Source: an uncultured bacterium
GTDB lineage: Bacteria; Verrucomicrobiota; Kiritimatiellia; PWTM01
Assembly (NCBI GenBank): GCA_900661335.1
Contig: CAACVY010000001.1
Location: 1 to 59,378, forward strand
Length of the DNA: 59,378 bases
Direction of reading: 5' to 3'
In this document: piece after piece, positions 10,994-50,130 of the stretch
Layout of the letters: every line of letters starts with the position of its first letter
Numbering within the stretch: position 1 is the first letter of the stretch
The notes under the pieces: model-generated
Databases searched by the model: none
Told to the model about the DNA's origin: nothing
What the model saw: only the letters and a program-made list of their open reading frames with translations
Translations under genes and position numbers: made by a program

Positions 10994-12078
10994 GTTCCGT
11001 CCTCCAGTTCCCGGGGAAGAAGCAAATCGGTCCGTCCGATGAGTTCTCGAGCACTCCGAAGACCCGTCAACCACAGGGCCACTCGGAACTCGTGCTCGAA
11101 TTGACGGATCAGCTCCACAACGCGCTCTGTAGATTCCATCGCGGGGGCCAAGAAGGGCCGCGCCACGCCTACCAACGAGGCTCCCAACGCCATCGCTTTG
11201 ACCATGTCCAGCCCCGAACGAATGCCCCCGGAAGCGATGAGCGTCATGCCGCGCTCGCGAAACGGAGCCAACGCCCGTAACGCAATCGGTGTGGGCACCC
11301 CCCAGTCCTGAAAGGTCTGCCCTAGGTCGTCGCCGACGCCCGCGGCACGCCGGCGATGGCCTTCGATCCGGCTCCATGAGGTGCCCCCCGCGCCCGCCAC
11401 GTCCAAAATACGAATTCCAGCGGTCCAAAGCGCCTGGGCGTCGGCGGGCGAGACGCCTGCGCCCACCTCTTTGACCACCACCGGCACGGGCAACTGCGCG
11501 GCGATGGCCCCGATCTTTTGCACTAGGCCTCCAAATCGAGTTTGTCCTTCGGGCTGAACCGCCTCTTGCAAAGGATTGCAGTGCAAGATCAAGGCGTCGG
11601 CGCGAAGGTGTTCCACGGCTCGCCGACACTGTTCGAGGCCATAGCCATAATTGAGCTGCACCGCGCCCAAGTTAGACAAGAGTACGGTCGAGGGTGCCAG
11701 CGGCCGCAAATCGAAACTGGCCGCCGTTTCCGGGTGCTCGATCATCACGCGCTGGGAGCCCACCCCCATCGCGACGCGACACAACTCGGCGGCTCGCGCC
11801 AAGTTGTGGTTGATCCGTTGCAACCGTTCGCCTCGCCCGCCGGTCATGGAGGAGATGAGCAAGGGAAGAGCGAGGGTGCGTCCTAAGAACTCGATCGAGG
11901 TGTCCACGTCCTCAAGGTCATACTCCGGAAGCGCTCGGTGCCAAAGTTGAATGCGATCGAAGTACCGGCGGTTTCGATCCGCCTCGGCATCGCGGAGAAT
12001 GATCTCGATGGCTTGTTCTTTTCGGTGTGGCCCGGAGGGGTCCGATGGAATCGGACCTGACGAGTTCCGTGCGTTCAT
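10990..12078 (-). CDS. fni: Type 2 (FMN-dependent) isopentenyl-diphosphate delta-isomerase
   Basis: SSMTGG, MGVGSQR, HCNPLQEAVQPEG, VKEVGAG, GAGGTSW and IASGGIR. ATGA overlap with HMGR. Confidence 0.95.
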   Translation of the reverse strand: MNARNSSGPIPSDPSGPHRKEQAIEIILRDAEADRNRRYFDRIQLWHRALPEYDLEDVDTSIEFLGRTLALPLLISSMTGGRGERLQRINHNLARAAELCRVAMGVGSQRVMIEHPETAASFDLRPLAPSTVLLSNLGAVQLNYGYGLEQCRRAVEHLRADALILHCNPLQEAVQPEGQTRFGGLVQKIGAIAAQLPVPVVVKEVGAGVSPADAQALWTAGIRILDVAGAGGTSWSRIEGHRRRAAGVGDDLGQTFQDWGVPTPIALRALAPFRERGMTLIASGGIRSGLDMVKAMALGASLVGVARPFLAPAMESTERVVELIRQFEHEFRVALWLTGLRSARELIGRTDLLLPRELEDGT

Positions 12079-13187
12079 TCCGAAGTCTCCGAGTCGGTAC
12101 CGGCTCGCTCCAAACGCAGGTGGGCTCGGACGAGTTCTCCCGGATTGGTCAGCGCCGCCAAGAGCGACAACTCGCCGCACAAGACAACGGCCGCGGCGAT
12201 CATGGCGAGTCGCTGAGCGGCTCGTCCCGGTTCTGAACTTGCCGCGCAACCTAGCAGTTGAAGATGCTTGCGGACCCATGGAAGGGCCTTCCCGGCGCCG
12301 ACGGTTCCCACCACCAAGTTCGGAAGCGTCACAGAAAAGTACAGCGTGTCCGACTGCGCCTCGGCCCACGTCGTTCCTTGCGATCCTTCGACGATGTTAG
12401 CCGCGTCTTGCCCGGTGGCTAGGTAGAGAGCCAGCAGCATGTTGGCAAAGTGAGCATTGGCGGACCGCAGTGAGCCGGCCAACGAGGACCCGAGAAGGTT
12501 TTTGCGCACGTTCAACTCCTCGATGGCCATGGGACTGGATCGGAGAATTCGACGGCAGACGGACGAAGGGAGTTCGCATTCTGCGACGACAAAGCGGCCC
12601 CGTCCCAACAGCCCGTTCACGGCCGAGACTTTTTTGTCCGTGCAGTAGTTGGCGGAGACCGACACGGCGCGTAGCTGCGGCCATTCGCGGACCATCCAGT
12701 CCAACACTTGTTGGGCCGCGCGTGTGACCATGTTGTGACCGGCGGCGTCGCCCGTCCAAAGTTCCAGCCGTACGAAAAGAAGCCGACCGCAGACTTCCCA
12801 GTGCAGGCGTTGGAATCGTGCAAAGCGACTGCCGGTCGTCGCCACTTGGGCGAGGTCGGCTTCGCGGGCTTGAAGAGCCGCGCCGATCCGCGCCGCTTCG
12901 AGGGCCGAGGGGGCTTCCAACAGCACGGAGCGGGTCATGCCTTCGCGAACCACGGCGACGCGAATACCGCCGGCCTCCCGTGTGGCCCGGGCGCCTCGAG
13001 CCACGGACGGCCACAGTGGGGTTTCCAGGGTCGCCAGGGGGACCCACACCTCTGCAGGTGCGTCCACGCCGATTAGCCGCACAGGACCCACCACCCGGAC
13101 CGGGAAGGGGATCGTGTGCGACCGGCCTCCAGGGACGGTGTGCGATGTTCGATCAGTCGGTGGCGCGGTCATTCGTTTGGCGTCCAT
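12075..13187 (-). CDS. HMG-CoA reductase, short class I-like bacterial form (start 13187 or 13172)
   Basis: VPLATLETPLWPSVARGA, GDAAGHNM, SANYCTDKK, TGQDAANIVEGS, VGTVG and GELSLLAA...HLRLER. Confidence 0.92.
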   Translation of the reverse strand: MDAKRMTAPPTDRTSHTVPGGRSHTIPFPVRVVGPVRLIGVDAPAEVWVPLATLETPLWPSVARGARATREAGGIRVAVVREGMTRSVLLEAPSALEAARIGAALQAREADLAQVATTGSRFARFQRLHWEVCGRLLFVRLELWTGDAAGHNMVTRAAQQVLDWMVREWPQLRAVSVSANYCTDKKVSAVNGLLGRGRFVVAECELPSSVCRRILRSSPMAIEELNVRKNLLGSSLAGSLRSANAHFANMLLALYLATGQDAANIVEGSQGTTWAEAQSDTLYFSVTLPNLVVGTVGAGKALPWVRKHLQLLGCAASSEPGRAAQRLAMIAAAVVLCGELSLLAALTNPGELVRAHLRLERAGTDSETSE

Positions 13188-13338
13188 ATTACGTGAAAGC
13201 TGGCCGGTGCGCCAGGCATACCCACTGGGGACGGTGCGCGGTTTGGGAGATGGTTTTGCTTGGCTTCTCCGTGAGGACTTGCTAGACTGCCGGCTCGGAC
13301 GGTAAATCCGTCCCATAAACAAGAAAGGAGTGATCCAT

Positions 13339-14331
13339 ATGGCGAGGCCAGTAACACTGTTCACCGGTCAGTGGGCGGATCTTCCGCTGGAAACGATGTG
13401 CCAAAAGGCAAAAGACTTCGGGTACGACGGCCTGGAGCTTGCCTGTTGGGGGGACCATTTCGAGGTCGCAAAAGCCAACGCGGCCTATTGCAAAGCCAAG
13501 CGCGAATTGTTGGCGAGATACGGACTGAAGGTGTACGCGATTTCCAGCCACCTGGTGGGTCAAGCGGTGTGCGACCGTATCGACGAGCGCCACAAGGGCA
13601 TTCTGCCGGACTACGTGTGGGGCGATGGGGACCCTGAAGGTGTTCGTCGCCGCGCGGCGAAGGAAATGATCGCCACGGCAAAGGCCGCCGCCGCATTGGG
13701 TGTACAGGTGGTCAATGGATTCACCGGTTCCTCGATCTGGCATCTGCTTTATGCGTTCCCGCCGACGCCGCAGTCCATGATCGACGAGGGATATGCCGAC
13801 TTCGCTCGGCGCTGGAAACCTATCCTCGATGCTTTCCAGAAAGCCGGTGTGAAGTTCGCGCTGGAAGTTCACCCGACCGAAATCGCCTTTGACATCGTCA
13901 GCGCAGAACGCGCGCTCAAGGCCGTGGACAACCATCCTGCGTTTGGCTTCAACTTCGATCCCAGCCACCTAGCATACCAAGGCGTGGACTACGTCGAGTT
14001 CATTCGGCGGTTCCGAGATCGCATTTTCCACGTTCACATGAAAGACGTGGGAGTCGCGAAAACGCCTCGGCTGAGCGGCGTGTTTGGCGGTCACCTGCCG
14101 TTCGGCGATCCTCGCAGGTACTGGGACTTCCGTAGCCTGGGGCGCGGCAGCGTGGACTTCGAGGCCATCATCCGCGCGTTGAACGAGATCAACTATCGTG
14201 GTCCGTTATCGGTGGAGTGGGAAGACTCCGGAATGGACCGCGAGCACGGCGCGCGGGAGGCTTGCCAGTTCGTCCGCCGTTTGGATTTCGAGCCTTCGGC
14301 CGTTGCGTTCGACGCTGCATTCGAGCGCTAA
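13339..14331 (+). CDS. Sugar phosphate isomerase/epimerase (xylose-isomerase-like TIM barrel, AP_endonuc_2 family)
   Basis: [29 protein letters not shown] and LSVEWED metal-binding motifs, with a strong AGGAG SD. Confidence 0.88.
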
Positions 14332-19063: not shown

Positions 19064-20584
19064 TCAGAAGTAGATATCCCGTTCGCCGGCCGCGACGCGT
19101 TGATAGGCAGCGTCAAACGCGGGCCACCACCGGGGCATAGTGCGGCGGACTTCTCCGATCTCGCGCTGGAGGACTCTTTCGCCGGCTTCTCGTGTCGGCT
19201 CGCTGGCAAAATCGTCGAGCCATTCGCGGTAGGTGAGGATCGCGTTGAGCTTACAGAATCGGGCCTCCGCTCCGCTGCGCAACAGGTCCATGATGCATTG
19301 TCCGGTTCGTCCGCAGCGATAGCCGGCGGTACAGAACGACACAATCAAGCCCATCTCGGCGAGATCCCGCACCAAATCGTCCAGCGAGCGGGTGTCGCCC
19401 AACATGAACTGCTGGCGTTCCATGGATTGTTCAGAGCGCACATCGCTGGTCGAGTAACCGCCGACTGCGATCCGCGCCGAGCCATCGGTCTGCGTAACGC
19501 CCAACTGCAATAGGCGCCGCCGGACGTCGGGCGGTTCGCGAGCCGTCAGGATCATGCCCGTGTAAGGGACGGCCAACCGCAACAGCACGACGATTCGCTC
19601 CATGTCCGTATCCGATACGCGCCATCGGGTTTCTTGGACATATGGGGCGTGGTCGGCCGGCTCGAGGCGGGGGAACGATATCGTATGCGGCCCGACGCCG
19701 AACACCCGTTCCAGTTCGATCGCGTGCGCCAACAAGCCCATGACTTCGAACTTCCAATCTCCGAGCCCGAACAATGCACCAATACCGACGTCGTCAATGC
19801 CCGCGGCCATCGCCCGGTGCATGGTGTACAATCGCCACGAGTAATTGGCCTTGAACGCCGCCGGATGAACCTGCCGGTACAGTTCCGGATCGTACGTTTC
19901 TTGGAACACCTGGTACGTACCCAGCCCAGCCTCGTGGAGACGACGAAGTTCTTCGATGCGCAGCGGGGGCGCATTGACGTTGACACGACGGATGGATCCC
20001 CAGCCGACGCGTGCACGGACCCGCACCGAGTAGATCGTCCGGATGCACTCGCAGATGAAGTCCACGTCCATGGACGGATGTTCGCCGAAGACAATGATCA
20101 GCCGTTTATGGCCAATGCGGCCCGCGAGCACTTCCACTTCGTTCCGTAGCTCCGTCATGCTCAATACCCGGCGGTCCATGTGCCGGTTCTCCACGCGTAG
20201 GCCACAGTACAGGCAGTTGTTGACGCAGCAATTGCCGATGTAGAGGGGGGCGAACGTGACGATGCGCCGGTCGTAGACCTTCAACTTGATTTCCGCGGCG
20301 ACGGTGCGCATCTCCTCCCAGAGGGCGGGGTCGGTGACGTGGAGGAGCGTTGCCAATTCGTCCAGGGATAGCGTGTGAATCGCTCGGGCCTTGGCCAAGA
20401 TGTCCCGTACCCGTTGGGCATCGGGTGGCTGTTCCGCCGCGCGCTGCAAGTGTGCACGAATCGCGTTGGGGTCGATAAAATCCCGGCCGCCCGGTCGCCA
20501 AGCGGCGATTTCATCCATGTTGATTCGACTTTGGGCCCAGCTGGCCACGTCGTGAGTCACTTGCGAGGATGTCGGACTCGTCAT
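19064..20584 (-). CDS. hydG: [FeFe]-hydrogenase H-cluster radical SAM maturase HydG
   Basis: FAPLY-x3-CVNNCLYC radical SAM motif, FQETY, GPHTISFPR and C-terminal auxiliary-cluster motif FCTAGYRC-x19-C. ATGA overlap with hydF. Confidence 0.93.
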   Translation of the reverse strand: MTSPTSSQVTHDVASWAQSRINMDEIAAWRPGGRDFIDPNAIRAHLQRAAEQPPDAQRVRDILAKARAIHTLSLDELATLLHVTDPALWEEMRTVAAEIKLKVYDRRIVTFAPLYIGNCCVNNCLYCGLRVENRHMDRRVLSMTELRNEVEVLAGRIGHKRLIIVFGEHPSMDVDFICECIRTIYSVRVRARVGWGSIRRVNVNAPPLRIEELRRLHEAGLGTYQVFQETYDPELYRQVHPAAFKANYSWRLYTMHRAMAAGIDDVGIGALFGLGDWKFEVMGLLAHAIELERVFGVGPHTISFPRLEPADHAPYVQETRWRVSDTDMERIVVLLRLAVPYTGMILTAREPPDVRRRLLQLGVTQTDGSARIAVGGYSTSDVRSEQSMERQQFMLGDTRSLDDLVRDLAEMGLIVSFCTAGYRCGRTGQCIMDLLRSGAEARFCKLNAILTYREWLDDFASEPTREAGERVLQREIGEVRRTMPRWWPAFDAAYQRVAAGERDIYF

Positions 20585-21843
20585 AGGGGAACCTCCGCCA
20601 TGGGGTTCGCCGCCGCGCGAAAGGCGCGATAGGCATTCGGAAATGGTTCGAGCACGCGATCGAGGACTCCCCGGGCCAACGAGATGGCCAAGCCATAGTT
20701 CGTGATCGGCACTCCGGCTTCCCGAGCACGCTCGATGCGCGTCAGCGTTTCGCGTCGGGTAAGCATGCAGGATCCACAATGGACCACTACGTCGTAGCCG
20801 CTCAAATCATCGGGGTAATCCCGCCCCTGCATATACTCGATGCACAGTTCGGCGCCCACCATGGATCGCAGCCATCGGGGGAGCTTCGATCGGCCGATGT
20901 CATCCTCCAATGGGTGGTGAGAGCAAGTCTCGGCGATCAGCACGCGGCTCTGGGGACGCAAGCGCGTGAGCGCCGCTGCGCCCCGAGCGAGCTCGTCTAG
21001 ATCGCCTCGGGCACGGGCCATGAGAATGGAGAACGTCGTGCACCGAATACCTGCGGGTGTGGAACGGACCATCATATCTACGACTTGCGAGTCGCACACC
21101 ACGAGGTCCGGAGGACGCGGAAGGCTGGCGAGGGTCTCGGCGTAGCGGCATTCTTTCACAACCGTCACCACCAAGTCGTGATCCAAGGCATCGCGGATCG
21201 CTTGCACCTGCGGCAGAATCAACCGGCCGCGAGGAGCGGAAATGTCAATCGGGACGATCAGCACCAGCCAGCCACCCTTGGGAAGCAAATCGCCGAGCAA
21301 GGGCGGAACCGCCAGCACGGCATCCGGCAGCGCCTGTTCGAGTAGCCGTCGGAACCGGCGTGCAATGTCCTCGCGCTGCGCCGCGTCGACCGCGCACGCC
21401 GTGATCCAGCCCACGGTGGATTTGGCGAGACTGTCCTTTTGAATTTCTGAAACGGGCCCGAGGTCGGACTTGTTGACGACACCCACCACCGGCACCCGGC
21501 GCGCTCGGGCGGCGGCCAAAACTTCTTCTTCGGGCGGCCCCCACTGTCCAGGTTCGCATACCAACACGACTACGTCGCACCTCTGCATCGCGGCATAGGT
21601 CCGCCGGCGACGCGCTTCGCCAAGCTCGCTCACGTCGTCCAGCCCGGCGGTATCCAGTAGAACCACGGGTCCGAGGGGCCATAACTCCATCGACTTTTCC
21701 ACTACGTCCGTGGTCGTTCCCGGGATTGGCGACGTGATCGCGAGGTCTTGCCCGACCAGGTAGTTCATCAGGCTGGATTTGCCGACATTCGTCCGGCCGA
21801 AGAATCCGATGTGCAAGCGCAGTGATTTGGGTGCGGTGTTCAT
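20581..21843 (-). CDS. hydF: [FeFe]-hydrogenase maturation GTPase HydF
   Basis: GRTNVGKSS, PGTTTD, DTAG, NKSD, APRGRLILPQ and the CSHH...HCGSC cluster motif. Confidence 0.96.
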   Translation of the reverse strand: MNTAPKSLRLHIGFFGRTNVGKSSLMNYLVGQDLAITSPIPGTTTDVVEKSMELWPLGPVVLLDTAGLDDVSELGEARRRRTYAAMQRCDVVVLVCEPGQWGPPEEEVLAAARARRVPVVGVVNKSDLGPVSEIQKDSLAKSTVGWITACAVDAAQREDIARRFRRLLEQALPDAVLAVPPLLGDLLPKGGWLVLIVPIDISAPRGRLILPQVQAIRDALDHDLVVTVVKECRYAETLASLPRPPDLVVCDSQVVDMMVRSTPAGIRCTTFSILMARARGDLDELARGAAALTRLRPQSRVLIAETCSHHPLEDDIGRSKLPRWLRSMVGAELCIEYMQGRDYPDDLSGYDVVVHCGSCMLTRRETLTRIERAREAGVPITNYGLAISLARGVLDRVLEPFPNAYRAFRAAANPMAEVPL

Positions 21844-31044: not shown

Positions 31045-33048
31045 ATGCAACCTGGCAGTCAGTTGGTGACGACCATCGGCGAGCGGTGCCGCGTATGCTA
31101 CACGTGCGTGCGCGACTGCCCGGCGAAGGCCATTCGGATTGCCGGTGGGCAGGCGAGAGTCGTTCCGGAGCGCTGTATCGGCTGCGGGAATTGTTACCGC
31201 GTATGCAGCCAAAAGGCGAAGCAGGTGTACGATTCTCGGAATGATGTGCGCGCTCTGCTGGCTTCTGGCCGCACGGTGGCGGCCATCGTGGCGCCGAGTT
31301 ACCCTGCCGAGTTTTCAGACCTGGAACCCTCGCAGGTGGCCGGCATGATCCGCCGCTTGGGCTTTCAACTCGTGTGTGAAACCGCATTCGGAGCCGATTT
31401 GGTCGCCCAGGAGTACCGGCGGCTGCTTGAAACGGACCGTGGCCGTTTCATCGGAACGACCTGCCCTGCCGTGGTCGCCTATGTTCAAAAATACTTGCCC
31501 GAGTTAGTGCCGAACCTCGCGCCGATCGTGTCGCCCATGATCGCAGAAGCCCGTGCACTCCGGCGTATTCATGGGGATGAACTCGCGGTGGTGTTCATCG
31601 GGCCCTGTTTGGCCAAAAAGGTCGAAGCCGACGGGATGGGGGCGCAGACTGCGGAAGTCGAAGCGGTCCTTACCTTTGTCGAGCTACGCGCAATGTTGCG
31701 CGAGGCGGGTATCGAACCGCGCCCGGCATCGGAAGAGCGCGACTTTGATCCTCCTCATCCCACGTTGGGCGCGCTGTTTCCAATCAGTCGCGGACTGCTC
31801 CAGGCCGCGCATTTGCGCGAGGACCTTTTGGAGGGCACCATCGTGGCGGCCGATGGGCGCCCCGCGTTTTTGCAAGCGTTGAGCGACTTCGCGGCGGGCG
31901 CGCTGGACGTCCGCCTGCTGGAAGTGCTCTGCTGTAACGGCTGTGTCATGGGGGCGGGGATGAGTGTGGACGCGCCGCTGTTCCAGCGCCGGATGGCGGT
32001 CAGCCGTCACGCGCGACGGCGTGTCGAACGATCCGATCCCGCGACTGAAGAACTCATTCGTCACCGCTTGGCCGGTCTCGACCTCCGCGCGGAGTTCCGG
32101 CCAGAAAAACTCCCCCCGAGCGCTGTCCCGCCGGAGGAATTGAAACGGATCTTGGCGGTGATGGGCAAGCTCAGCCCGGAGGACGAACTGAACTGTGGGG
32201 CGTGTGGCTACTCGACCTGCCGTGAGCACGCTGCGGCCATCTATTTGGGGCTGGCCGAAAGCGAGATGTGCCTCCCGTACACGATCGACCGTTTGCGGGA
32301 ATCGCTTAAGGAGTTGAGCGAGTCCAACGCGCAGTTGGCCAGCGCGCGCGAAGCCCTGATGAATGCGGAGAAACTGGCCAGCATGGGGCAGTTGGCCGCG
32401 GGCATCGCCCACGAGATCAACAACCCACTCGGGGTGATCCTCCTGTATGCAAAGATGTTGTTGAACGAAATTCCACCGGCCTCGCAGGCGCGTCAAGATC
32501 TGGCGCTGATTGCCGAACAGGCCGAACGGTGCCGAAACATCGTGTCAGGGTTGCTCAACTTCGCGCGACGGAATCGTGTCGTCCGGCGTCCGACCAATCT
32601 CATCGAACTGGTCGAACGCTGTCGACGAGGGGTCGTGATTCCGGACCATGTCTACGTGTATGTTCGGCATAACATGCGCGATCCGATGGCGGAAGTGGAC
32701 GGCGACCAGATCCTGCAGGTGTTGACCAACCTGATCGTCAATGCTGTCGAGGCGATGCCCAATGGGGGCGAGCTGACGATTGAAACCGATGATACGGACG
32801 AGGAAGTCATCCTCCGAGTGCGGGATACGGGTTGTGGAATTCCGCCCCAGAACTTGCCCAAGATTTTCGAGCCTTTCTTCACGACCAAGCAGATCGGGAA
32901 AGGCACCGGACTTGGCTTGGCGGTGGCCTATGGAATCGTCAAAATGCACCGAGGGCGGATCGAAGTTACGTCGAATGCGGATCCCTCTCGCGGGCCGACC
33001 GGCACGACGTTCACGGTGACCTTGCCCCGTCGAGCGGAGGAGGTGTGA
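31045..33048 (+). CDS. Sensory (group C-like) [FeFe]-hydrogenase domain fused to an FeS domain and a histidine kinase
   Basis: Two [4Fe-4S] motifs (CRVCYTCVRDCP, CIGCGNCYRVC), H-cluster motifs TTCP, GPCLAKKVE and EVLCCNGCVMG, FeS domain NCGACGYSTC...MC, H-box AHEINNP, and N/G1/F/G2 boxes. Confidence 0.88.
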   Translation: MQPGSQLVTTIGERCRVCYTCVRDCPAKAIRIAGGQARVVPERCIGCGNCYRVCSQKAKQVYDSRNDVRALLASGRTVAAIVAPSYPAEFSDLEPSQVAGMIRRLGFQLVCETAFGADLVAQEYRRLLETDRGRFIGTTCPAVVAYVQKYLPELVPNLAPIVSPMIAEARALRRIHGDELAVVFIGPCLAKKVEADGMGAQTAEVEAVLTFVELRAMLREAGIEPRPASEERDFDPPHPTLGALFPISRGLLQAAHLREDLLEGTIVAADGRPAFLQALSDFAAGALDVRLLEVLCCNGCVMGAGMSVDAPLFQRRMAVSRHARRRVERSDPATEELIRHRLAGLDLRAEFRPEKLPPSAVPPEELKRILAVMGKLSPEDELNCGACGYSTCREHAAAIYLGLAESEMCLPYTIDRLRESLKELSESNAQLASAREALMNAEKLASMGQLAAGIAHEINNPLGVILLYAKMLLNEIPPASQARQDLALIAEQAERCRNIVSGLLNFARRNRVVRRPTNLIELVERCRRGVVIPDHVYVYVRHNMRDPMAEVDGDQILQVLTNLIVNAVEAMPNGGELTIETDDTDEEVILRVRDTGCGIPPQNLPKIFEPFFTTKQIGKGTGLGLAVAYGIVKMHRGRIEVTSNADPSRGPTGTTFTVTLPRRAEEV

Positions 33049-34238
33049 TGGAGCGTTGGCGTGTTTTAGTGGTGGACGACGAACCCGGGATGTGCCGGGG
33101 TGTCCAGCGGGTGTTGCAACGTCACACCGTGCAACTGCCCGACTTGGGGGCCGAGATCGGGTTTGAAACTGAGGGCGTGGAAACGCTAAGCGAGGCGCGG
33201 GCGGCGCTGACGGCCCGACGGCCGGATCTCATCTTGCTCGACTACAAGCTGCCCGATGGATCGGGGCTGGATTTTTTGCGCGAGCTTCGAACCAGCCAGT
33301 GGGATGGATTGGTGATCATTATTACTGCGTTCGCCTCATTGGACGTTGCGGTCGCGGCGACGCGCAACGGGGCCTTCGATTTCTTGGCCAAACCGTTTGC
33401 GCCGGAAGAACTCGAGACGGTGGTTTCCAAGGCCGTGCGGACGCTTGTGGTCGAACGTCGTGCAAGGCGGTTGGAAGAAGAGCGGCGCCGTACGCGTCTG
33501 GAGTTCCTGTCGGTTCTTGCGCATGAGCTCAAAGCGCCCATTGGGGTGGTGGAGGGAATTTTGCGCCTGATGGCCTCGCGGGTGTTGGGAGCGGATATTT
33601 CCGCCTATGACCGACACATTCACCGCGCGTTGGCCCGGCTGGAAGGAATGCGCAAGCTGATTTTGGACTTGTTGGATCTGACCCGGATCGAGGCTGGCGA
33701 ACGGCGGCGTGAGCTCGGGCGCGTGGATGTGGCTGAGGTGGCGCGCGCCGCCCTCGACATGGTGGCCAGCGATGCCGCGGCACGAAAGATCCAGCTCCGC
33801 TTGCACGCGCAGCCACCGGTCGAGCTGTGGGCCGACCGTAGCGAATTGGAAATCATCCTGAACAACCTAGTGAGCAATGCAGTAAAGTACAACCGCGACG
33901 AAGGATCGGTGGACGTCTGGCTCCGGCGCCTAGAGGACGGCGTGGAGATCGAGGTGGCGGACACCGGGGTGGGGATGACCGAGGAAGAACAGGCACGGTT
34001 GTTTCGAGAATTCTCGAGGATCCGCAACGAAAAAACGCGGAACATTCCGGGCAGTGGATTGGGCCTATCGACCGTGAAAAAGCTGGTGCAAATCTATCGC
34101 GGCGAGATTACGGTCCGCAGTCAACCGGACGTCGGTTCGACCTTCACCGTCCGATTGCGCGATGCAACGGCTGCGAATCCGTCCACCCCGCCGCAGGCTC
34201 AGGTGATCTCGCCAACTCCCGTGGCGGAATCGCGCTGA
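33048..34238 (+). CDS. Hybrid receiver-histidine kinase (REC-HisKA-HATPase)
   Basis: LVVDDE, LLDYKLPD, ITA and KPF receiver motifs, then AHELKAP, NLVSNAVKY, DTGVG and GSGLGL. Start overlaps the upstream stop (TGATG). Confidence 0.92.
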   Translation: MERWRVLVVDDEPGMCRGVQRVLQRHTVQLPDLGAEIGFETEGVETLSEARAALTARRPDLILLDYKLPDGSGLDFLRELRTSQWDGLVIIITAFASLDVAVAATRNGAFDFLAKPFAPEELETVVSKAVRTLVVERRARRLEEERRRTRLEFLSVLAHELKAPIGVVEGILRLMASRVLGADISAYDRHIHRALARLEGMRKLILDLLDLTRIEAGERRRELGRVDVAEVARAALDMVASDAAARKIQLRLHAQPPVELWADRSELEIILNNLVSNAVKYNRDEGSVDVWLRRLEDGVEIEVADTGVGMTEEEQARLFREFSRIRNEKTRNIPGSGLGLSTVKKLVQIYRGEITVRSQPDVGSTFTVRLRDATAANPSTPPQAQVISPTPVAESR

Positions 34239-34396
34239 TCACAGGTACGGCAGAAGGGTCGGATTTCGTCACGGTGGTCAAGAAGGTGTCGCTGTGGGCG
34301 GCGCTCGGGGGATCGGTGTTTTGTTCGCGGTTTCCTGACGTGACCACCATGGCGGGCGCGTGGTGTCTCGATGTGCGATGCGCCCGAGCGGTTCGC

Positions 34397-36454
34397 TCAT
34401 CGGGGGGTGAAATCTTCACTGCTCGACCACACGGCGATGGCGAGGGGATCAAGTACGATGTGATGCGTGCAGACCTCTGGCGCGACGGTCATCGAAGTCA
34501 ACTCCAACTTCCAGTGACCTGCGGGGAGTTCGAAGCGCATGGGAGTACGTGCGCCATTGATTAGCACCAACAGGTCGGGTTCGGGTGAGTGACTTCCGGT
34601 GTGAACCGGGTGTCCACTGAGATGAAAGCCCAACGCACTGCCGCGATGCCAATCGGGAGTGCCCCCATCCGGTCCGAACCACACGATGTCCGGGCCGACG
34701 CCATCCGGCCCGCGCCCGGTTAAAAACCTCGTTCGACGAAGCGACCGGAACCGGGCGCGCAACCGAATCAGCGCGCGGACCCATGCATGCAATTCAGCGT
34801 TTTTGTCAAGCAACGACCAGTCCACCCAGCCGAGCGGGTTATCTTGCGCGTAGACGTTGTTGTTACCCTGCTGCGTGCGACCCAACTCGTCACCCGCCAG
34901 CAACATCGGGACGCCCTGAGCGAGTAGCACGCAGGCCAACAGGTTTTTTTGCTGGCGCAGGCGAAGTGCCTCGATGGCCGGGTTATCCGAAGGGCCTTCG
35001 ACGCCGCAGTTAAACGAGAAATTGATTTGATCACCGTCGCGCCCGCCTTCGCAGTTGGCCTCGTTGCGCGGTCGCGTATAGCGAACAAGATCTGCCAGGG
35101 TGAAACCATCGTGGCAGGTGACGTAGTTCACGCTTGTCAACGGTCCATGGGGGCGGCCGGTGTAGAGGTCCGAACTGCCGGCGAGGCGCGTGGCCAGCGC
35201 GCCGAGAAAGCCCGGGTCACCGCGCCAGAACCTTCGCACGTCGTCGCGGAATCGTCCATTCCATTCCAACCAAGAACGGCCAGGGAAGTTGCCAACTTGA
35301 TAGAGACCGGCGGCGTCCCAAGGCTCGGCGACGAGGCGTACGTTGCGCAGGACGGGGTCCGCGGCGATGTGGGCGAGGAGGGGCGGGTCGCGTAATGGCA
35401 TGCCATCCGGCCCTCGCGTGAGCGCGGCGGCGAGGTCGAACCGGAGGCCGTCTACGTGGAAATCTTGAACCCATCGGCGGAGAACCTGGACGATCAAGTC
35501 AGCCACCGGTGGCTCGTTGGCGTTGACCGTGTTGCCGCACCCCGTGTAATTGGCGAAGTCCTCGGTGCCTGGACGGCGAAGGTAGTAGAGGTCGCGGTCT
35601 AGCGCTTTGAAGTGAAACACCGGTCCGCCGGCGCCCCATTCGCCCGTGTGGTTGAAGACCACGTCCAGCCACACTTCGATCCCCGCGGAGTGCAGTCGCC
35701 GTACGAGCTCGCGGAACTCGTCCAACGCACCTGTGGCGGTGGTGGCGGCGGCGTACTTCGAGTTGGGGGCGCCCCACGCGATGGGGTCGTATCCCCAGAA
35801 GTTCCGCAAGTGTCGGCGATGACGGGCTTCGAGGAAAAATGCCATTTCGTCGAACTCCTGCAGCGGCAGGAACTCCACCGCGGTGACGCCGAGATCCACG
35901 AGATACGGGATCTTTTCCATGAAGCCCGCGTAGGTTCCCGGGTGCTGCACGCGTGAGGACGGGTGCGCGGTGAAACCGCGGAGGTGCACTTCGTACACGA
36001 CGAGATCCTCGAGTCGGTGACGCGGGGACTGGTCGCCTCGCCAGTCGAACCGCGAGAAGTCCACGACCACGCACTTGGGAAATTCGGCTCCGTGATGGCG
36101 CCAGCGCCCAGGGGTCAGGCCTCGAGGGTCGCCCCACGGGGCTGGCCACGCCAGCGCGCTGGCCGCTGGATCCAAGATCCATTGCGTCGGATCGCCACCA
36201 GGTATTTCGACGCGGTATACATACAGCGCGCCATGCTGCACACCCGGCACATGCACGCACCAAAGATCTTCGATGCGGTGGTGTTCGGGGTCGAGCGCCA
36301 AGGTCTCGAACGGCTGCTCGTCATCCGGGTTCTCGAACAGCATTAGGTACACGCGCCGCGCACGCGCGCAGCGCAACACGAACCGCGTGCCATCGGGTTC
36401 CACCCGTGCGCCGCATTCGAGCGGTCCGTCCATGCACAGAAGTCGAGAATCCAT
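34397..36454 (-). CDS. glgX: Glycogen debranching enzyme/isoamylase (GH13); start uncertain
   Basis: YEVHLRGFT, NFWGY, DVVFNHT, NYTGCGNT, DGLRFDLA, AEPWD and CHDGFTLAD. Confidence 0.93.
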   Translation of the reverse strand: MDSRLLCMDGPLECGARVEPDGTRFVLRCARARRVYLMLFENPDDEQPFETLALDPEHHRIEDLWCVHVPGVQHGALYVYRVEIPGGDPTQWILDPAASALAWPAPWGDPRGLTPGRWRHHGAEFPKCVVVDFSRFDWRGDQSPRHRLEDLVVYEVHLRGFTAHPSSRVQHPGTYAGFMEKIPYLVDLGVTAVEFLPLQEFDEMAFFLEARHRRHLRNFWGYDPIAWGAPNSKYAAATTATGALDEFRELVRRLHSAGIEVWLDVVFNHTGEWGAGGPVFHFKALDRDLYYLRRPGTEDFANYTGCGNTVNANEPPVADLIVQVLRRWVQDFHVDGLRFDLAAALTRGPDGMPLRDPPLLAHIAADPVLRNVRLVAEPWDAAGLYQVGNFPGRSWLEWNGRFRDDVRRFWRGDPGFLGALATRLAGSSDLYTGRPHGPLTSVNYVTCHDGFTLADLVRYTRPRNEANCEGGRDGDQINFSFNCGVEGPSDNPAIEALRLRQQKNLLACVLLAQGVPMLLAGDELGRTQQGNNNVYAQDNPLGWVDWSLLDKNAELHAWVRALIRLRARFRSLRRTRFLTGRGPDGVGPDIVWFGPDGGTPDWHRGSALGFHLSGHPVHTGSHSPEPDLLVLINGARTPMRFELPAGHWKLELTSMTVAPEVCTHHIVLDPLAIAVWSSSEDFTPR

Positions 36455-47787: not shown

Positions 47788-50130
47788 TTACTTGACCTGG
47801 AGCCAGGGTTCTCCGGTGCCGGCAATGACCGCTTGGCCAAACGCAACCCCGCCGTCGTTGGGAGCAACTTTCTGGTGGGTCAGCACCCTGAACCCGCGGT
47901 GTTCTAACTCGTTCGACAAGCTCTCGTGGAGAAGACGGTTCATAAATACACCGCCGGACATTCCGACCGTCGTCATGCCGGTTTGCTCCCGTGCATGTTC
48001 TACCATGCGCAGCGCGGCTTGGACCATTGCGGCGTGGAACGTGCGTGCAATATCCGGAACGCGGTCGAGGAGCCGAGGCACCGCGTAGAGCCAACGAAAC
48101 AGCGGTGACCAGTCCACCCACAGAAATTCCCCCTCGAGTTCCGCGGACCAAAACGTACGGGCGAGCGACTCGTCCGCCCAACCCGGCCGTGCGCGGGCCT
48201 CCAAGCGTACGGCGGTCTGTCCCTCATATGTGACGGTTTCCGGCGCCAGGTGCAGCGCTGCGGCAACGGAGTCAAAGACGCGACCCGCTGCATGCGTCGC
48301 GAACACGTTCCACGATCGTTGAACTTGGGCTTGCCAGATCTCGGCGGTGCGTTCGGGAATTCCAAGGCGGCGTGCGATCGCTTCCAGCGAATCCACCTTT
48401 AACACGAGCCACCGCGCAAAGATCTGTCGTACGGGCTCGCGCACGGCCGCGTCCCCGCCGAGAAGCGGTGCAGGTCGGAACGACGCCAGGCGGCGCGCAT
48501 GGGCGAAGTTAGGAAGGAGGAACAACTCCGCGCCCCAGATCGTTCCATCGGGCCCCAAGCCGGTGCCATCCCAAGCTAACACCAGGCCCGACTCGCACCC
48601 ATGCTCGGCGAGCACCGCCACGGCGTGTGCATGGTGGTGCTGAATGCGCACGACCGACCCATGATGCTTCAATGCCAGTTCCTCGCCCAGGCGAGTGGAG
48701 TGGTAGTCCGGATGCAGATCCACGGCCACCACCGAAGGGTGGATGCGAAGAAAGTCCGGTAGTGAAGTTGCAACTTTGCGCAAGTGCGCCACAGCTTCGG
48801 GCGCTTCGAGGTCCCCGATGTGGGGCGACATCCAAACGCAGTTGCCCTCGGCCACCGCGACCGTGTTCTTCAGCTCGGCACCCATAGCCAGTACCGATCG
48901 TTGGAGCGGCCGATGCAACCGAACAGGCTCGGGCGCCCACCCGCGGGCACGCCGCCAGACCTGCAAGGTTCCAGATCGCGGGGTGGCCAGAGAGTCGTCA
49001 GCGCGAAATTGGATCTCCCGGTTGTGGAGCAACAACAGATCCGCCACATCGCGCAACGCGGTAAGAGCTTCTTCGTTGGACAAACAGATCGGCGCACCAC
49101 TTCGGTTGCCGCTGGTCATGACCAGTAAGTCGAATGGAGGAACGGGGTCGTCACGGAGAGGCATCCCTAGCAACAGTTGCAGTGGCGTGGCGGGCAACAT
49201 GATGCCGATGGTGCCCGTGTCAGGTGAAAGCCATTCCACCAGCCGTTGGCCAAGCGGCGTTGGGTCTAGGATGACAATCGGGGTTACGGGCGGTCCGAGG
49301 GCGTCGCGGAGTTCGTCCGGGACCACGACGTACCGAAGGAGGGTGTCCAAGTCGCGCGCCATGACGGCGAGGGGTTTCGAGGGGCGGCGCTTGCGCTCGC
49401 GGAGCCGGCGGACCGCATCGGGCTGGGTCGCGTCCACCGCCAGTAGAAACCCGCCCATGCCCCGCAGTGCGACAATGCGACCCGCTGCCAAGGCGGCCCG
49501 CGCAACGCGAATCGGTTCGCCCGACACCGGTTGGCCGTCGGATGTGACCAGCTGCAGACGTGGGCCGCAGATCGGGCATGCGATGCTCTCCGCGTGAAAT
49601 CGCCGGTCGCTCGGATCCTCGTATTCGCGTTGACACGCGGCACAGAGAGGAAACACGCGCATGGTGGTGCGCACACGATCGTACGGCATGGACTCGATCA
49701 CGGTGTAGCGAGGTCCGCAGTCGCAGCACGTGGTGAAGGGATACCCATACCGGCGGTTGGAGGGATCCAGGACTTCTACACGGCACGCGTCGCACATCGC
49801 CATGTCCGGTGGAATCCCAGGTCGCGCGGTGGGATCCTCCCCGCCATACCGAATGTGGAAAGGTCCGTGTGCTCCGGGGGGAATCCGCATGAGCTCCACG
49901 GTGCGGATCGAGTCCACTCGAGCACGCGGCGGGAGGCGCGACGGCAACTCGTCCAAAAACCGCTGCACCAGCTCCTCGGGTCCTTCGAGTGCCAACCGCA
50001 CGGTGCCCGTGCGGTTCTGCACCCACCCGCCCAGCCCTGCGGCCGTGGCCAGGCGGTGGAGCGCGGGACGGAACCCCACGCCCTGGACGATCCCAGTGAG
50101 GTCAACGACATGACGGATCCAACACGACAC
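47788..50130 (-). CDS. hypF: Carbamoyltransferase HypF
   Basis: Acylphosphatase motif GIVQGVGFRP, two Zn fingers (CDAC/CCDCGPR and CAAC/CPICGP), VMTSGN, QHHHAH, DGTG and PNDGG. Confidence 0.95.
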   Translation of the reverse strand: MSCWIRHVVDLTGIVQGVGFRPALHRLATAAGLGGWVQNRTGTVRLALEGPEELVQRFLDELPSRLPPRARVDSIRTVELMRIPPGAHGPFHIRYGGEDPTARPGIPPDMAMCDACRVEVLDPSNRRYGYPFTTCCDCGPRYTVIESMPYDRVRTTMRVFPLCAACQREYEDPSDRRFHAESIACPICGPRLQLVTSDGQPVSGEPIRVARAALAAGRIVALRGMGGFLLAVDATQPDAVRRLRERKRRPSKPLAVMARDLDTLLRYVVVPDELRDALGPPVTPIVILDPTPLGQRLVEWLSPDTGTIGIMLPATPLQLLLGMPLRDDPVPPFDLLVMTSGNRSGAPICLSNEEALTALRDVADLLLLHNREIQFRADDSLATPRSGTLQVWRRARGWAPEPVRLHRPLQRSVLAMGAELKNTVAVAEGNCVWMSPHIGDLEAPEAVAHLRKVATSLPDFLRIHPSVVAVDLHPDYHSTRLGEELALKHHGSVVRIQHHHAHAVAVLAEHGCESGLVLAWDGTGLGPDGTIWGAELFLLPNFAHARRLASFRPAPLLGGDAAVREPVRQIFARWLVLKVDSLEAIARRLGIPERTAEIWQAQVQRSWNVFATHAAGRVFDSVAAALHLAPETVTYEGQTAVRLEARARPGWADESLARTFWSAELEGEFLWVDWSPLFRWLYAVPRLLDRVPDIARTFHAAMVQAALRMVEHAREQTGMTTVGMSGGVFMNRLLHESLSNELEHRGFRVLTHQKVAPNDGGVAFGQAVIAGTGEPWLQVK

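What the first reader, a model, noticed from the sequence alone, without database searches (positions are those of the whole stretch)
31045..34238. PAS-less sensory [FeFe]-hydrogenase-histidine kinase coupled to a receiver-kinase: putative H2-sensing phosphorelay
Seen: one polypeptide carries 2x[4Fe-4S], an H-cluster domain, an FeS domain, a short coiled coil and HisKA/HATPase, with no PAS domain between FeS and kinase. H-cluster motifs are TTCP, GPCLAKKVE and EVLCCNGC. The next gene (REC-HisKA-HATPase, no sensor or DNA-binding domain) overlaps by TGATG, and no output regulator is adjacent. Established: prototypical motifs are TSCCP, MPC and ExMxC, and loss of the proton-transfer Cys and the two Met residues characterises group C (HydS-type) sensory hydrogenases; kinase-linked forms are predicted but little characterised. 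Inference: H2 or redox state drives HK1, which phosphorylates the REC domain of HK2, which signals to a distant regulator. The hydF/hydG genes about 10 kb away could supply the cofactor.
Basis: partly seen in the sequence, partly recalled or inferred. Interest (0 to 1): 0.72.

Follow-up and report, generated by a model that had tools for sequence, protein, structure and literature searches.

The report
Hydrogenase-like sensor kinase with partner kinase
Two overlapping genes encode a hydrogenase-like iron-sulfur sensor fused straight to a signalling kinase plus a second receiver-kinase, a probable hydrogen-sensing relay of a widespread, already catalogued but biochemically untested type.

Summary
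Window 31045-33048 (+) encodes a 667-aa protein: 2x[4Fe-4S], H-cluster domain, Cx2Cx4Cx16C FeS domain, HisKA and HATPase, with no PAS. Gene 2 (33048-34238, 396 aa, REC-HisKA-HATPase) starts inside TGATG, a 1-nt overlap.

The reading as a HydS-type (group C/D) sensory [FeFe]-hydrogenase is supported. All four H-cluster cysteines are kept, while the proton-relay Cys and both Met are replaced.

The PAS-less kinase fusion is not unusual:
- 120 of 120 best database hits share it.
- It has been noted in print (10.1101/765248; PMC11406978; HydDB class C1, PMC5037454).
- This scan has noted it before on other DNA: 70 notes in at least 63 genomes.

- The REC-kinase partner is adjacent in 14 of 14 and 11 of 11 related loci; the two sets overlap.
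- Other phyla place the pair, plus one or two stand-alone receivers, inside hydCBA-hydEG operons.
- The spacing from the FeS domain to the phospho-His keeps heptad phase.
- The L3 motif is one residue shorter than canonical.

H2 sensing, HK1-to-HK2 phosphotransfer and the output remain untested. Verdict: new member of a known kind, moderate-low interest.

The parts
31045..33048 (+). HK1: HydS-type sensory [FeFe]-hydrogenase module fused to a histidine kinase (667 aa)
   Evidence: ORF; Pfam domains; 120 same-architecture homologues at 58-97% identity; AlphaFold2 model with mean pLDDT 90.5; Foldseek top hits are [FeFe]-hydrogenases plus the ZraS kinase core.
31078..31218 (+). N-terminal 2x[4Fe-4S] ferredoxin-like domain (residues 12-58; two CxxCxxCxxxC motifs)
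   Evidence: Fer4_10/Fer4_7/Fer4_9 matches. Cys15, 18, 21, 25, 44, 47, 50 and 54 are invariant or at least 90% conserved in 60 homologues.
31273..31956 (+). H-cluster domain (residues 77-304). L1 GTTCP at 31453-31467, L2 GPCLAKKVE at 31600-31626, L3 EVLCCNGC at 31921-31944
   Evidence: Fe_hyd_lg_C at 147 bits. Alignment to solved HydA chains maps the motifs. C140, C188, C297, C300, P141, S163, P164 and E194 are invariant in 60 homologues.
32188..32277 (+). C-terminal FeS domain, Cx2Cx4Cx16C (C384, C387, C392, C409)
   Evidence: PF04060 match. All four Cys are invariant. This motif is named as the hallmark of M2e/M2f sensory hydrogenases in PMC8163306 (passages read).
32272..32382 (+). Helical linker (signalling helix) running from the last FeS Cys into the DHp
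   Evidence: The model has a single helix at 410-475. The C409-to-H456 spacing is 47 aa in 120 of 120 close homologues. 28 of 32 wider kinase-fused representatives have spacings in heptad phase with 47.
32383..33033 (+). HisKA (447-509, phospho-His H456) and HATPase_c (552-663) transmitter of HK1
   Evidence: Pfam. Nearest NCBIfam models are AtoS/ZraS (NtrB-like), below their cut-offs. H456 is at least 90% conserved; N566, D594, G596, G598 and G622-L625 are invariant.
33048..34238 (+). HK2: REC-HisKA-HATPase receiver-kinase (396 aa). REC about 33048-33425, HisKA 33495-33698, HATPase 33834-34163. The start overlaps the HK1 stop by 1 nt
   Evidence: Sequence; Pfam. In 25 orthologues D10, D11, D65, T93, K115, H159, N277, D305, G307 and G309 are invariant. 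An orthologue is adjacent to the HK1 orthologue in 14 of 14 loci and 11 of 11 loci.
19067..20491 (-). hydG, H-cluster radical-SAM maturase (the ORF may extend to 20779)
   Evidence: TIGR03955 at 453 bits, cut-off 312; Pfam Radical_SAM + BATS.
20584..21843 (-). hydF, H-cluster maturation GTPase
   Evidence: TIGR03918 at 501 bits, cut-off 326; HydF_dimer and HydF_tetramer.

Best explanation
HK1 is a soluble sensor kinase. Its input module is a HydS-type (putatively sensory, low-turnover) [FeFe]-hydrogenase: two N-terminal [4Fe-4S] clusters, an H-cluster pocket and a C-terminal [4Fe-4S] domain.

The proposed mechanism has four steps:
1. The H-cluster is matured by HydE/F/G and reacts with H2, or equilibrates with the H2/ferredoxin redox poise through the N-terminal clusters.
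2. The resulting conformational change in the H-domain/FeS-domain is passed down one continuous, heptad-phased helix (residues 410-475) into the DHp. This switches autophosphorylation of H456.
3. HK1 works as a fixed two-gene unit with HK2. The most likely wiring is phosphotransfer from HK1-H456 to D65 of the HK2 receiver, which gates the HK2 kinase or phosphatase.
4. HK2 then acts on a response regulator encoded elsewhere. The biological target is most likely the single HydABC-type hydrogenase and its fermentative redox balance.

Shown: architecture, residue conservation, gene linkage, operon context in relatives. Inferred: H-cluster incorporation, H2 as the signal, the direction of phosphotransfer, and the target.
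For: Architecture and fold:
- Pfam domains, model and Foldseek hits agree on a hydrogenase module joined to a kinase core.

H-cluster pocket:
- The four H-cluster Cys (C140, C188, C297, C300), plus A-P-S, S-P, both Lys of L2 and E194, are conserved. They are invariant, or 118 of 118, in close homologues.
- The proton-relay Cys is replaced by Thr, M353 by Gly and M497 by Leu. Characterised TmHydS and TamHydS carry comparable substitutions (PMC8163306, passages read).

Maturases and the catalytic hydrogenase:
- hydG and hydF are in the window.
- HydE is above its cut-off in 5 of 5 near-complete relatives.
- Those 5 relatives have one sensor gene; four of them have one catalytic Fe_hyd_lg_C gene and G065 has three.

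Operon context in relatives:
- In Planctomycetota, Acidobacteriota and Krumholzibacteriia loci the HK1-HK2 pair sits inside Rex-hydC-hydB-hydA-...-hydE-hydG operons.
- HK2 is adjacent in 14 of 14 loci and 11 of 11 loci. At least one genome is counted in both sets.

Catalytic competence:
- All catalytic residues of both kinases and of the receiver are invariant.

Linker:
- The FeS-to-His spacing is 47 aa in 120 of 120 close homologues.
- Of 15 representatives with another spacing, 11 differ by a multiple of 7.
- Counted as distinct lengths, 4 of 8 differ by a multiple of 7, P=0.018.

Complex prediction (HK1 DHp-CA dimer with HK2 REC):
- Score 0.44, best of 3 controls 0.13; the tool's verdict is 'weak support'.
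- The mark was reached by 116 of 157 solved complexes and 2 of 215 mismatched pairs. At 0.60 or under, only 18 of those 157 solved complexes reached it, as did both mismatches.
- The runs agree in at least 88% of contacts and the partner pLDDT is at least 80.
- Kinase-receiver complexes have been solved, so the pass may reflect likeness only.
Against: - No member of the kinase-fused clade has been tested for H-cluster binding or H2 response. My literature searches found none.
- L3 is one residue shorter than in every characterised [FeFe]-hydrogenase. The authors of PMC11406978 could hardly find the P1-P3 motifs in group C1 proteins and left H2 sensing open (passage read).
- In TamHydS the C-terminal cluster is not reduced by H2 (PMC13104023, abstract and passages). 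A simple redox relay through that cluster is therefore unlikely.
- In 11 of 14 loci and 6 of 11 loci, stand-alone receivers lie between or beside the two kinases.
- One HK1-type protein (P0138) is fused to a receiver that is nearer to those stand-alone receivers (36-40% identity) than to the HK2 receiver. The primary acceptor of HK1 may therefore not be HK2.
- In this genome the pair is unlinked from hydABC, which lies on contig C126.
- No output regulator was identified.
Confidence: 0.55

Rival explanations
1. FeS/redox sensor without a [2Fe] subcluster (Nar1/NARF-like use of the fold). HK1 binds only [4Fe-4S] clusters and reports ferredoxin redox state, O2 or NO rather than H2.
For: - L3 has Cx2C instead of the canonical Cx3C spacing in the whole fused-output clade.
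- The residue after S-P is Met instead of Gln.
- PMC11406978 (passage read) could hardly find P1-P3 in C1 proteins.
- The protein carries three accessory cluster sites.
- In this genome the pair is unlinked from hydABC.
Against: - All four H-cluster Cys are invariant, and the L2 Lys pair, E194 and the A-P-S and S-P motifs that line the [2Fe] site in group A enzymes (roles recalled) are conserved or invariant across homologues.
- Every near-complete relative checked has HydE (5 of 5). hydG and hydF are in the window.
- In other phyla the gene sits between hydA and hydE/hydG.
- Characterised relatives with the same substitutions (TmHydS, TamHydS) do bind an H-cluster (PMC8163306, passages read).
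Confidence: 0.2
2. The two kinases are not in series. Either HK1 and HK2 act in parallel on a shared receiver (the stand-alone REC proteins of other lineages, or an unlinked one here), or the HK2 receiver is only a phosphate sink or feedback element.
For: - Two families of stand-alone REC proteins are embedded in the cluster in most lineages. L010 and L011 have both; L007 has one called plus an uncalled frame for the other.
- The receiver fused to the HK1-type protein P0138 resembles these stand-alone receivers, not the HK2 receiver.
- The HK2 receiver is under 30% identical to them in most comparisons.
- The complex score is only weak support.
Against: - In the window's own genus and family, and in one more genome of the class (G065), the stand-alone receivers are missing from the locus, yet HK1-HK2 stay adjacent. 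In the window the two genes overlap by one base; in the relatives they lie within about 10 nt of each other.
- The best match to the stand-alone receiver in three near-complete same-genus genomes is only 33-34% identical.
- HK2 receiver residues D10, D11, D65, T93 and K115 are invariant in 25 orthologues.
Confidence: 0.3
3. HK1 is primarily a working hydrogenase, with the kinase part secondary or inactive.
For: The N-terminal clusters give an electron path like that of small group A enzymes.
Against: - The proton-relay Cys and other residues of the group A proton pathway are replaced (CpI numbering recalled).
- Characterised relatives have low rates (PMC8163306, passages read).
- The kinase catalytic residues are invariant.
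- A canonical HydABC is present in the genome.
Confidence: 0.03

Closest known systems
Kinase-fused group C [FeFe]-hydrogenases noted in genome surveys: Elusimicrobia lineage V (10.1101/765248), Hydrogenedentota group C1 with HATPase_c and 'BfuT' with a His-kinase domain (PMC11406978), and HydDB class C1 'histidine kinase-linked (putative)' (PMC5037454; example Petrimonas mucosa, PMC7768429)
   Same: - The same fusion of a HydS-type module to a histidine-kinase transmitter without PAS.
- The same association with HydABC-type (group A3) hydrogenase genes and Rex in relatives.
- The same status: predicted, untested.
   Different: - In this genome the pair is unlinked from hydABC.
- These papers, in the passages I read, do not describe the invariably adjacent REC-kinase partner, the stand-alone receivers, the heptad-phased linker or the shortened L3.
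- The HydDB subgroup of this protein was not determined here.
TmHydS (Thermotoga maritima, group C, M2f) and TamHydS (Thermoanaerobacter mathranii, group D, M2e), the two characterised putative sensory [FeFe]-hydrogenases
   Same: - 2x[4Fe-4S] + H-domain + Cx2Cx4Cx16C domain.
- Proton-relay Cys lost.
- M353 to Gly as in TmHydS, and M497 to Leu as in TamHydS (PMC8163306 passages).
   Different: - TmHydS ends in a PAS domain and TamHydS in nothing. Neither is fused to a kinase.
- The PAS-type representatives keep the canonical C-x-G-G-C in L3, whereas this clade has C-x-G-C.
- In my FastTree tree all fused-output forms fall in one clade (SH-like support 96) apart from most PAS-only forms. TmHydS and TamHydS themselves were not in the tree.
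Regulatory [NiFe]-hydrogenase HoxBC with kinase HoxJ and regulator HoxA of Ralstonia eutropha (HydDB [NiFe] group 2b)
   Same: A low-activity hydrogenase used as an H2 sensor that controls a histidine kinase, which governs hydrogenase expression (class description in PMC5037454; mechanism recalled).
   Different: - Unrelated metal site and fold.
- There the sensor and the kinase are separate proteins and the NtrC-type output is known.
- Here sensor and kinase are one chain, a second kinase follows, and the output is unknown.
Multi-kinase, multi-receiver relays such as the Myxococcus RedCDEF four-component system and the Leptospira LvrA/LvrB hybrid kinases (recalled; LvrB is a weak NCBIfam hit)
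   Same: Two histidine kinases and receiver-only proteins encoded together without a DNA-binding output in the cluster.
   Different: No sequence orthology was shown. The wiring here is unknown.

Membership tests
Putative sensory [FeFe]-hydrogenases (HydS-type; groups C/D, subclasses M2f/M2e) | H-domain with the four H-cluster-ligating cysteines | tested here: met
   Fe_hyd_lg_C at 147 bits. C140, C188, C297 and C300 align to the ligand Cys of solved HydA and are invariant in 60 homologues.
Putative sensory [FeFe]-hydrogenases (HydS-type; groups C/D, subclasses M2f/M2e) | [quoted passage not shown] | tested here: met
   Fer4 dicluster families at residues 12-58. The eight Cys are conserved.
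Putative sensory [FeFe]-hydrogenases (HydS-type; groups C/D, subclasses M2f/M2e) | C-terminal Cx2Cx4Cx16C cluster motif | tested here: met
   C384-x2-C387-x4-C392-x16-C409, read from the sequence. PF04060 match. The motif is defined in PMC8163306 (passages read).
Putative sensory [FeFe]-hydrogenases (HydS-type; groups C/D, subclasses M2f/M2e) | Loss of the proton-relay Cys (C299) and of M353/M497 | tested here: met
   TSCCP becomes GTTCP, MPC becomes GPC, ExMxC becomes EVLCC.
Putative sensory [FeFe]-hydrogenases (HydS-type; groups C/D, subclasses M2f/M2e) | Binds an H-cluster and reacts slowly with H2 | not testable with these tools
   Needs maturation followed by FTIR/EPR. No tested member of the kinase-fused clade was found in the searches.
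Group C sensu M2f (TmHydS-like) | PAS domain after the C-terminal cluster | tested here: not met
   No PAS family at E<=0.01. Only 35 residues lie between FeS and HisKA, and they are modelled as one helix.
HydDB [FeFe] group C1, 'histidine kinase-linked (putative)' | Assignment by the HydDB classifier | not testable with these tools
   HydDB is not available here. PMC11406978 reports both C1 (with HATPase_c) and C3 (with a His-kinase domain) labels for kinase-bearing forms, so the subgroup stays open.
HydDB [FeFe] group C1, 'histidine kinase-linked (putative)' | Linked to a histidine kinase | tested here: met
   Fused in one chain, with a second kinase gene overlapping by 1 nt.
HisKA-family histidine kinases (both proteins) | H-box His and the N, G1, F and G2 boxes | tested here: met
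   HK1: H456, N566, D594/G596/G598 and G622-L625. HK2: H159, N277, D305/G307/G309. Pfam scores are above the cut-offs.
Response-regulator receiver domain (HK2 N-terminus) | Acidic pocket, phospho-Asp, and Thr/Lys switch residues | tested here: met
   D10, D11, D65, T93 and K115 are invariant in 25 orthologues. Response_reg at 79.6 bits.
Phosphorelay HK1 -> HK2 receiver | Specific phosphotransfer between the two proteins | tested here: inconclusive
   Adjacency in 14 of 14 and 11 of 11 loci. The complex prediction gave weak support only: 0.44 against a best control of 0.13, and the likeness to solved kinase-receiver pairs may explain the pass.

The most novel reading that the evidence does not exclude
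The HydS-kinase, the receiver-kinase and (in most phyla) two families of stand-alone receivers form a dedicated, ancient multi-kinase H2 relay that never carries a DNA-binding output in its cluster. Its output would then be either protein-level control by a phosphorylated single-domain receiver or by HK2 itself, or an unlinked sigma54-type activator (candidate in this genome: the NtrC-type regulator on contig C51, which has no HisKA-type kinase gene detected on that contig). The window's lineage would have reduced this relay to its two-kinase core. The heptad-locked helix from the FeS domain to the phospho-His would make this family the simplest system in which H2 sensing by an [FeFe] site can be read out directly as kinase activity.
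Probability: 0.25. Interest if true: 0.6.

Novelty: new member of a known kind. Interest (0 to 1): 0.33.

Why it matters
Whether group C/D [FeFe]-hydrogenases really sense H2, and how the signal leaves the protein, is still open. [quoted passage not shown]

A member in which the sensor is fused by a single rigid helix to a kinase gives a direct biochemical read-out: autophosphorylation with and without H2. That holds for the whole family, which was already catalogued, so this window adds no new kind of system.

The additions made here give concrete hypotheses and constructs for anyone who takes the family to the bench:
- the obligatory REC-kinase partner;
- the accompanying stand-alone receivers;
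- the heptad-phased linker;
- the shortened L3 motif.

Tried and rejected
- Hidden PAS domain: rejected (Pfam at E<=0.01; single helix 410-475 in the model).
- HK2 starting at TTG 32832: rejected in favour of ATG 33048, which has a Shine-Dalgarno sequence upstream, because all 25 orthologues start at that position.
- Longest-ORF gene calling on related loci gave spurious antisense and run-on ORFs. I replaced it with a codon-position GC filter.
- Fused HK1-HK2 or other forms over 1168 aa: none scored E<=1e-20. The tool itself calls this weak evidence.
- Orthologue of the stand-alone receivers in the window's genome: none found by tblastn at E<1e-8 except one 30%-identity hit. The eleven REC domains of the assembly are not close to them. 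The assembly is only 68% complete. In three near-complete same-genus genomes the best match was 33-34% identical.
- HydE in the window's genome: only a cross-hit on hydG. This is attributed to incompleteness, since 5 of 5 relatives have it.
- Sigma54 promoter consensus in the hydC-rex intergenic region of C126: none.
- Sigma70-type promoter scan upstream of HK1: 0 sites found, 0.9 expected. Uninformative.
- Expression: no RNA holder listed.
- Complex prediction: weak support only.
- Placing TmHydS or TamHydS in my tree, and running HydDB: not possible with the sequences and tools at hand.
- Supplements of PMC11406978 (Fig. S4, S5; Data Set S1) were not opened. They may show gene neighbourhoods that include the second kinase.

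Full report
**What is there**

The window carries two same-strand genes. HK1 (31045-33048, 667 aa) matches the following Pfam families:
- Fer4 dicluster families (residues 12-58);
- Fe_hyd_lg_C (77-304; 147 bits, cut-off 22);
- the small FeS family PF04060 (382-411);
- HisKA (447-509);
- HATPase_c (552-663).

No PAS family appears at E<=0.01.

HK2 is listed as an ORF from TTG 32832. However, ATG 33048 follows a GGAGGAGG box, overlaps the HK1 stop by one base (TGATG), and is where all 25 orthologues begin. HK2 is therefore a 396-aa REC-HisKA-HATPase protein.

Both flanking genes lie on the other strand: a sugar-nucleotide dehydratase and a GlgX-type debranching enzyme. No response regulator is adjacent.

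About 9.2 kb upstream lie hydG (TIGR03955, 453 bits, cut-off 312) and hydF (TIGR03918, 501 bits, cut-off 326).

**The hydrogenase module**

HMMER alignment to solved HydA chains puts the motifs as follows:
- GTTCP on TSCCP;
- GPCLAKKVE on MPCxxKKxE;
- EVLCC.NGC on EVMACPGGC.

The four cluster-ligating Cys are therefore present. The proton-relay Cys is Thr, the first Met is Gly and the second is Leu.

According to PMC8163306 (passages read), TmHydS has Gly/Ser and TamHydS Ser/Leu at the two Met positions. Both lack the relay Cys, and both carry the C-terminal Cx2Cx4Cx16C motif, which is exact here (C384, C387, C392, C409).

In an alignment of 60 homologues, C140, P141, S163, P164, C188, E194, C297, C300 and the four C-terminal Cys are invariant.

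An AlphaFold2 model built on that alignment has mean pLDDT 90.5 and pTM 0.71. Its best Foldseek matches are [FeFe]-hydrogenases (D. desulfuricans, T. kivui HydA, CbA5H, T. maritima HydA, CpI; probability 1.0). For the C-terminal part the match is the ZraS kinase core.

**No PAS, and a phased helix**

Only 35 residues separate the FeS domain from HisKA. The model makes residues 410-475 one helix that runs from the last cluster Cys through the phospho-His H456.

The spacing from the last Cys to the His behaves as follows:
- It is 47 residues in 120 of 120 close homologues.
- Among 32 more distant kinase-fused representatives, 28 have spacings of 33, 40, 47, 54 or 68, all in heptad phase.
- Of the 15 that differ from 47, 11 differ by a multiple of 7.
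- Counted as distinct lengths, 4 of 8 differ by a multiple of 7, binomial P=0.018.

This is the signature of a coiled-coil signalling helix whose register matters. It is the best clue to how the signal reaches the kinase.

**How common it is**

- All 120 best hits in the 5.8-billion-protein collection (58-97% identity, 590-695 aa) have the same domain set without PAS. Source names include Phycisphaerae, Planctomycetes, Latescibacteria, Lentisphaeria and Hydrogenedentes.
- A search of 1.84 billion 50%-identity representatives with the sensor part alone (residues 60-420) found 3291 at E<=0.001 and 485 at E<=1e-30.
- I classed the best 150 with my own regular expression and phmmer. The result was 37 with a kinase directly after the FeS domain, 9 with a kinase after a spacer, 62 with a roughly 170-residue tail, 16 with long non-kinase tails, 8 with short tails and 18 fragments.

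Pfam on 33 of these, chosen to cover the classes, showed a modular family:
- direct fusions to sigma54 AAA+ modules, 7 of them with an HTH domain found at the 1e-7 threshold used (11 proteins);
- direct fusions to GGDEF, GGDEF-HD, HisKA_3 kinase and kinase-REC;
- forms with a spacer domain: PAS-kinase, PAS-sigma54 and GAF-GAF-kinase.

Of four 170-residue tails scanned at E<=0.01, three gave weak PAS matches. I therefore take this class to be the classical PAS-type HydS.

In the window's own phylum, 91 of 301 sampled genomes have a match at E<=1e-60. Only 12, including this one, have the full kinase fusion. One more (G139) is broken by stop codons. The other 78 match the sensor part only.

**A clade-specific active-site detail**

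Column logos show that all sensory groups keep A-P-S, a single-Cys L1, S-P-M and F-I-G-P-C-x-A-K-K-x-E.

The kinase-, sigma54- and GGDEF-fused forms have C-x-G-C in L3. The PAS-type tails and group A enzymes have C-x-G-G-C.

The additional Cys296 of the window's protein is present in 98 of 118 close homologues but in only 4 of 32 wider kinase-fused representatives. It is therefore unlikely to be a ligand.

A FastTree tree of 136 sensor modules, rooted on five HydA sequences, places all fused-output forms in one clade (SH-like support 96). The window's protein sits within a 23-row clade (support 99). Many inner branches are unsupported, so I draw no finer conclusions.

The shortened L3 may be why the authors of PMC11406978 'were hardly able to find' motifs P1-P3 in group C1 proteins (passage read).

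**The partner kinase and the gene neighbourhood**

In 14 of 14 full-length loci from one-genome-per-species contigs, an HK2 orthologue (50-63% identity) follows HK1. These loci come from Verrucomicrobiota, Lentisphaerae, Planctomycetota, Acidobacteriota and Krumholzibacteriia.

The same holds in 11 of 11 other genomes of the window's phylum (44-72% identity). The two sets overlap: L003 and L024 appear to be the same contig.

D10, D11, D65, T93, K115, H159, N277, D305, G307 and G309 of HK2 are invariant in 25 orthologues.

Outside the window's family the pair is embedded in hydrogenase operons:
- Rex-HydC-HydB-HydA-HK1-REC-HK2-HydE-HydG (L006), with the same core order and small variations in L007, L010 and L015 (L011 has HydB-HydA-REC-HK1-REC-HK2 but no maturase genes in the locus);
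- HK1-HK2-REC-HydB-HydA (L009, L012, L014 and L016; L008 is cut within HydB, and L013 has only HK1-HK2-REC confirmed).

Stand-alone receivers of 127-147 aa (168 aa as called in L014) fall into two families. L010 and L011 have both. L007 has one called, plus an uncalled frame for the other.

The receiver fused to one HK1-type protein (P0138) resembles these stand-alone receivers (36-40% identity) rather than the HK2 receiver.

In the window's genus, its family and one more genome of the class (G065), the pair stands alone.

**The rest of this genome**

The assembly (2.63 Mb, 137 contigs) is 68% complete.
- It holds one further Fe_hyd_lg_C gene, on contig C126. This is a 586-aa HydA with canonical TSCCP, matching NF040763, 'NADH-dependent [FeFe] hydrogenase, group A6' (780 bits, cut-off 765). 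HydB and HydC lie next to it, with a divergent Rex.
- Three near-complete same-genus genomes and one same-family genome each have exactly two Fe_hyd_lg_C genes, one catalytic and one sensor.
- All five relatives checked have HydE above its cut-off. The missing hydE here is probably an assembly gap.
- The assembly has eleven REC domains: an OmpR-type, a LuxR-type, two NtrC-type (one on C51 with no HisKA-type kinase hit on that contig, by tblastn), three hybrid kinases, three single-domain receivers, and HK2.
- None is a close relative of the stand-alone receivers of other lineages.
- No sigma54 consensus lies in the hydC-rex intergenic region.

**Does HK1 talk to HK2?**

Gene linkage says the two proteins work together. 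It does not say how.

A complex prediction of the HK1 DHp-CA dimer with the HK2 receiver gave a score of 0.44, against a best control of 0.13:
- The tool's verdict was 'weak support'.
- The mark was reached by 116 of 157 solved complexes and 2 of 215 mismatches. At 0.60 or under, only 18 of those solved complexes reached it, as did both mismatches.
- The runs agree in at least 88% of contacts and the partner pLDDT is at least 80.

Kinase-receiver complexes have been solved, so the pass may only reflect likeness. I put the series wiring (HK1 to HK2-D65) at about even odds. The parallel or sink wiring is the main alternative.

**What is known already**

[quoted passage not shown] It also notes Rex nearby (10.1101/765248, passage read).
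- The Hydrogenedentota study reports C1 proteins with HATPase_c, 21 of 53 of them next to A3 hydrogenases, and a 'BfuT' form with a His-kinase domain (PMC11406978, passages read).
- Petrimonas mucosa has a C1 gene near hnd (PMC7768429, passage read).
- A 2022 review calls the sensory role putative (PMC8924675, passages read).
- My four literature searches turned up no biochemical test of a kinase-fused member.
- This scan has itself noted the fusion 70 times in at least 63 genomes.

**Verdict**

The object is a new member of a known, predicted kind. Interest is moderate-low. The system is a good experimental handle on an open question, but that is a property of the whole, already catalogued family, and nothing in this copy is exceptional beyond its separation from the hydrogenase operon.

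Noticed in passing
Proteins P0157, P0177, P0185, P0199, P0213, P0223, P0226, P0238, P0262, P0263, P0269; P0137, P0253; P0147; P0197: The HydS-type sensor module (2x[4Fe-4S], H-domain, FeS domain) is also fused directly, without PAS, to several other outputs: sigma54 AAA+ modules (7 of the 11 with an HTH found at the 1e-7 threshold), which would be one-component regulators; GGDEF; GGDEF-HD; a HisKA_3 kinase; and GAF-GAF-kinase. One literature search for sigma-54 with sensory [FeFe] hydrogenases found no paper describing these forms.
   Followed up: partly
L006:4081-5880, L007:3773-5485, L009:11524-13461, L015:4257-5975 versus G000 contig C126 (L001:1297-3054, minus strand): The HydA genes next to the sensor in four relatives have TSCSP in motif L1, with Ser at the position usually given as the cluster-ligating Cys. 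This genome's HydA has canonical TSCCP. PMC11406978 (passage read) already reports Ser as common at this position in BfuA sub-types.
   Followed up: partly
G139:C23:12383-14156 (L032): One genome of the phylum carries the HK1 orthologue in two pieces with in-frame TAG and TGA stops. A stand-alone receiver and HK2 still lie downstream. This is a likely pseudogene or sequencing error.
   Followed up: no
Proteins P0143, P0224, P0240, P0247, P0251: A well-supported subclade (support 100) sits inside the kinase-fused clade. Its roughly 210-residue C-terminal tails match no Pfam family at E<=0.01 in the two members scanned. This may be an unknown output domain.
   Followed up: partly
G000 contig C126, about 9980-10010, between hydC and rex: The sequence TGTGAAGAACGGCACAA in the hydC-rex intergenic region resembles a Rex operator half-palindrome (consensus recalled). 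My stricter pattern did not match it.
   Followed up: partly
window 8817-13364 (minus strand): A cluster of a GHMP-kinase-family gene, HMG-CoA synthase and HMG-CoA reductase, that is, mevalonate-pathway genes in a bacterium.
   Followed up: no
window 47791-50130 (minus strand): A full-length HypF carbamoyltransferase, a [NiFe]-hydrogenase maturation factor. This suggests the organism also has a [NiFe]-hydrogenase. I did not look for one.
   Followed up: no
G000 contig C39, about 31100-35100: A second HydB/HydC-like (NuoF/NuoE-like) gene pair, with a partial match to the N-terminal part of HydA but no H-domain. This is possibly a formate dehydrogenase or another NADH-linked complex.
   Followed up: no
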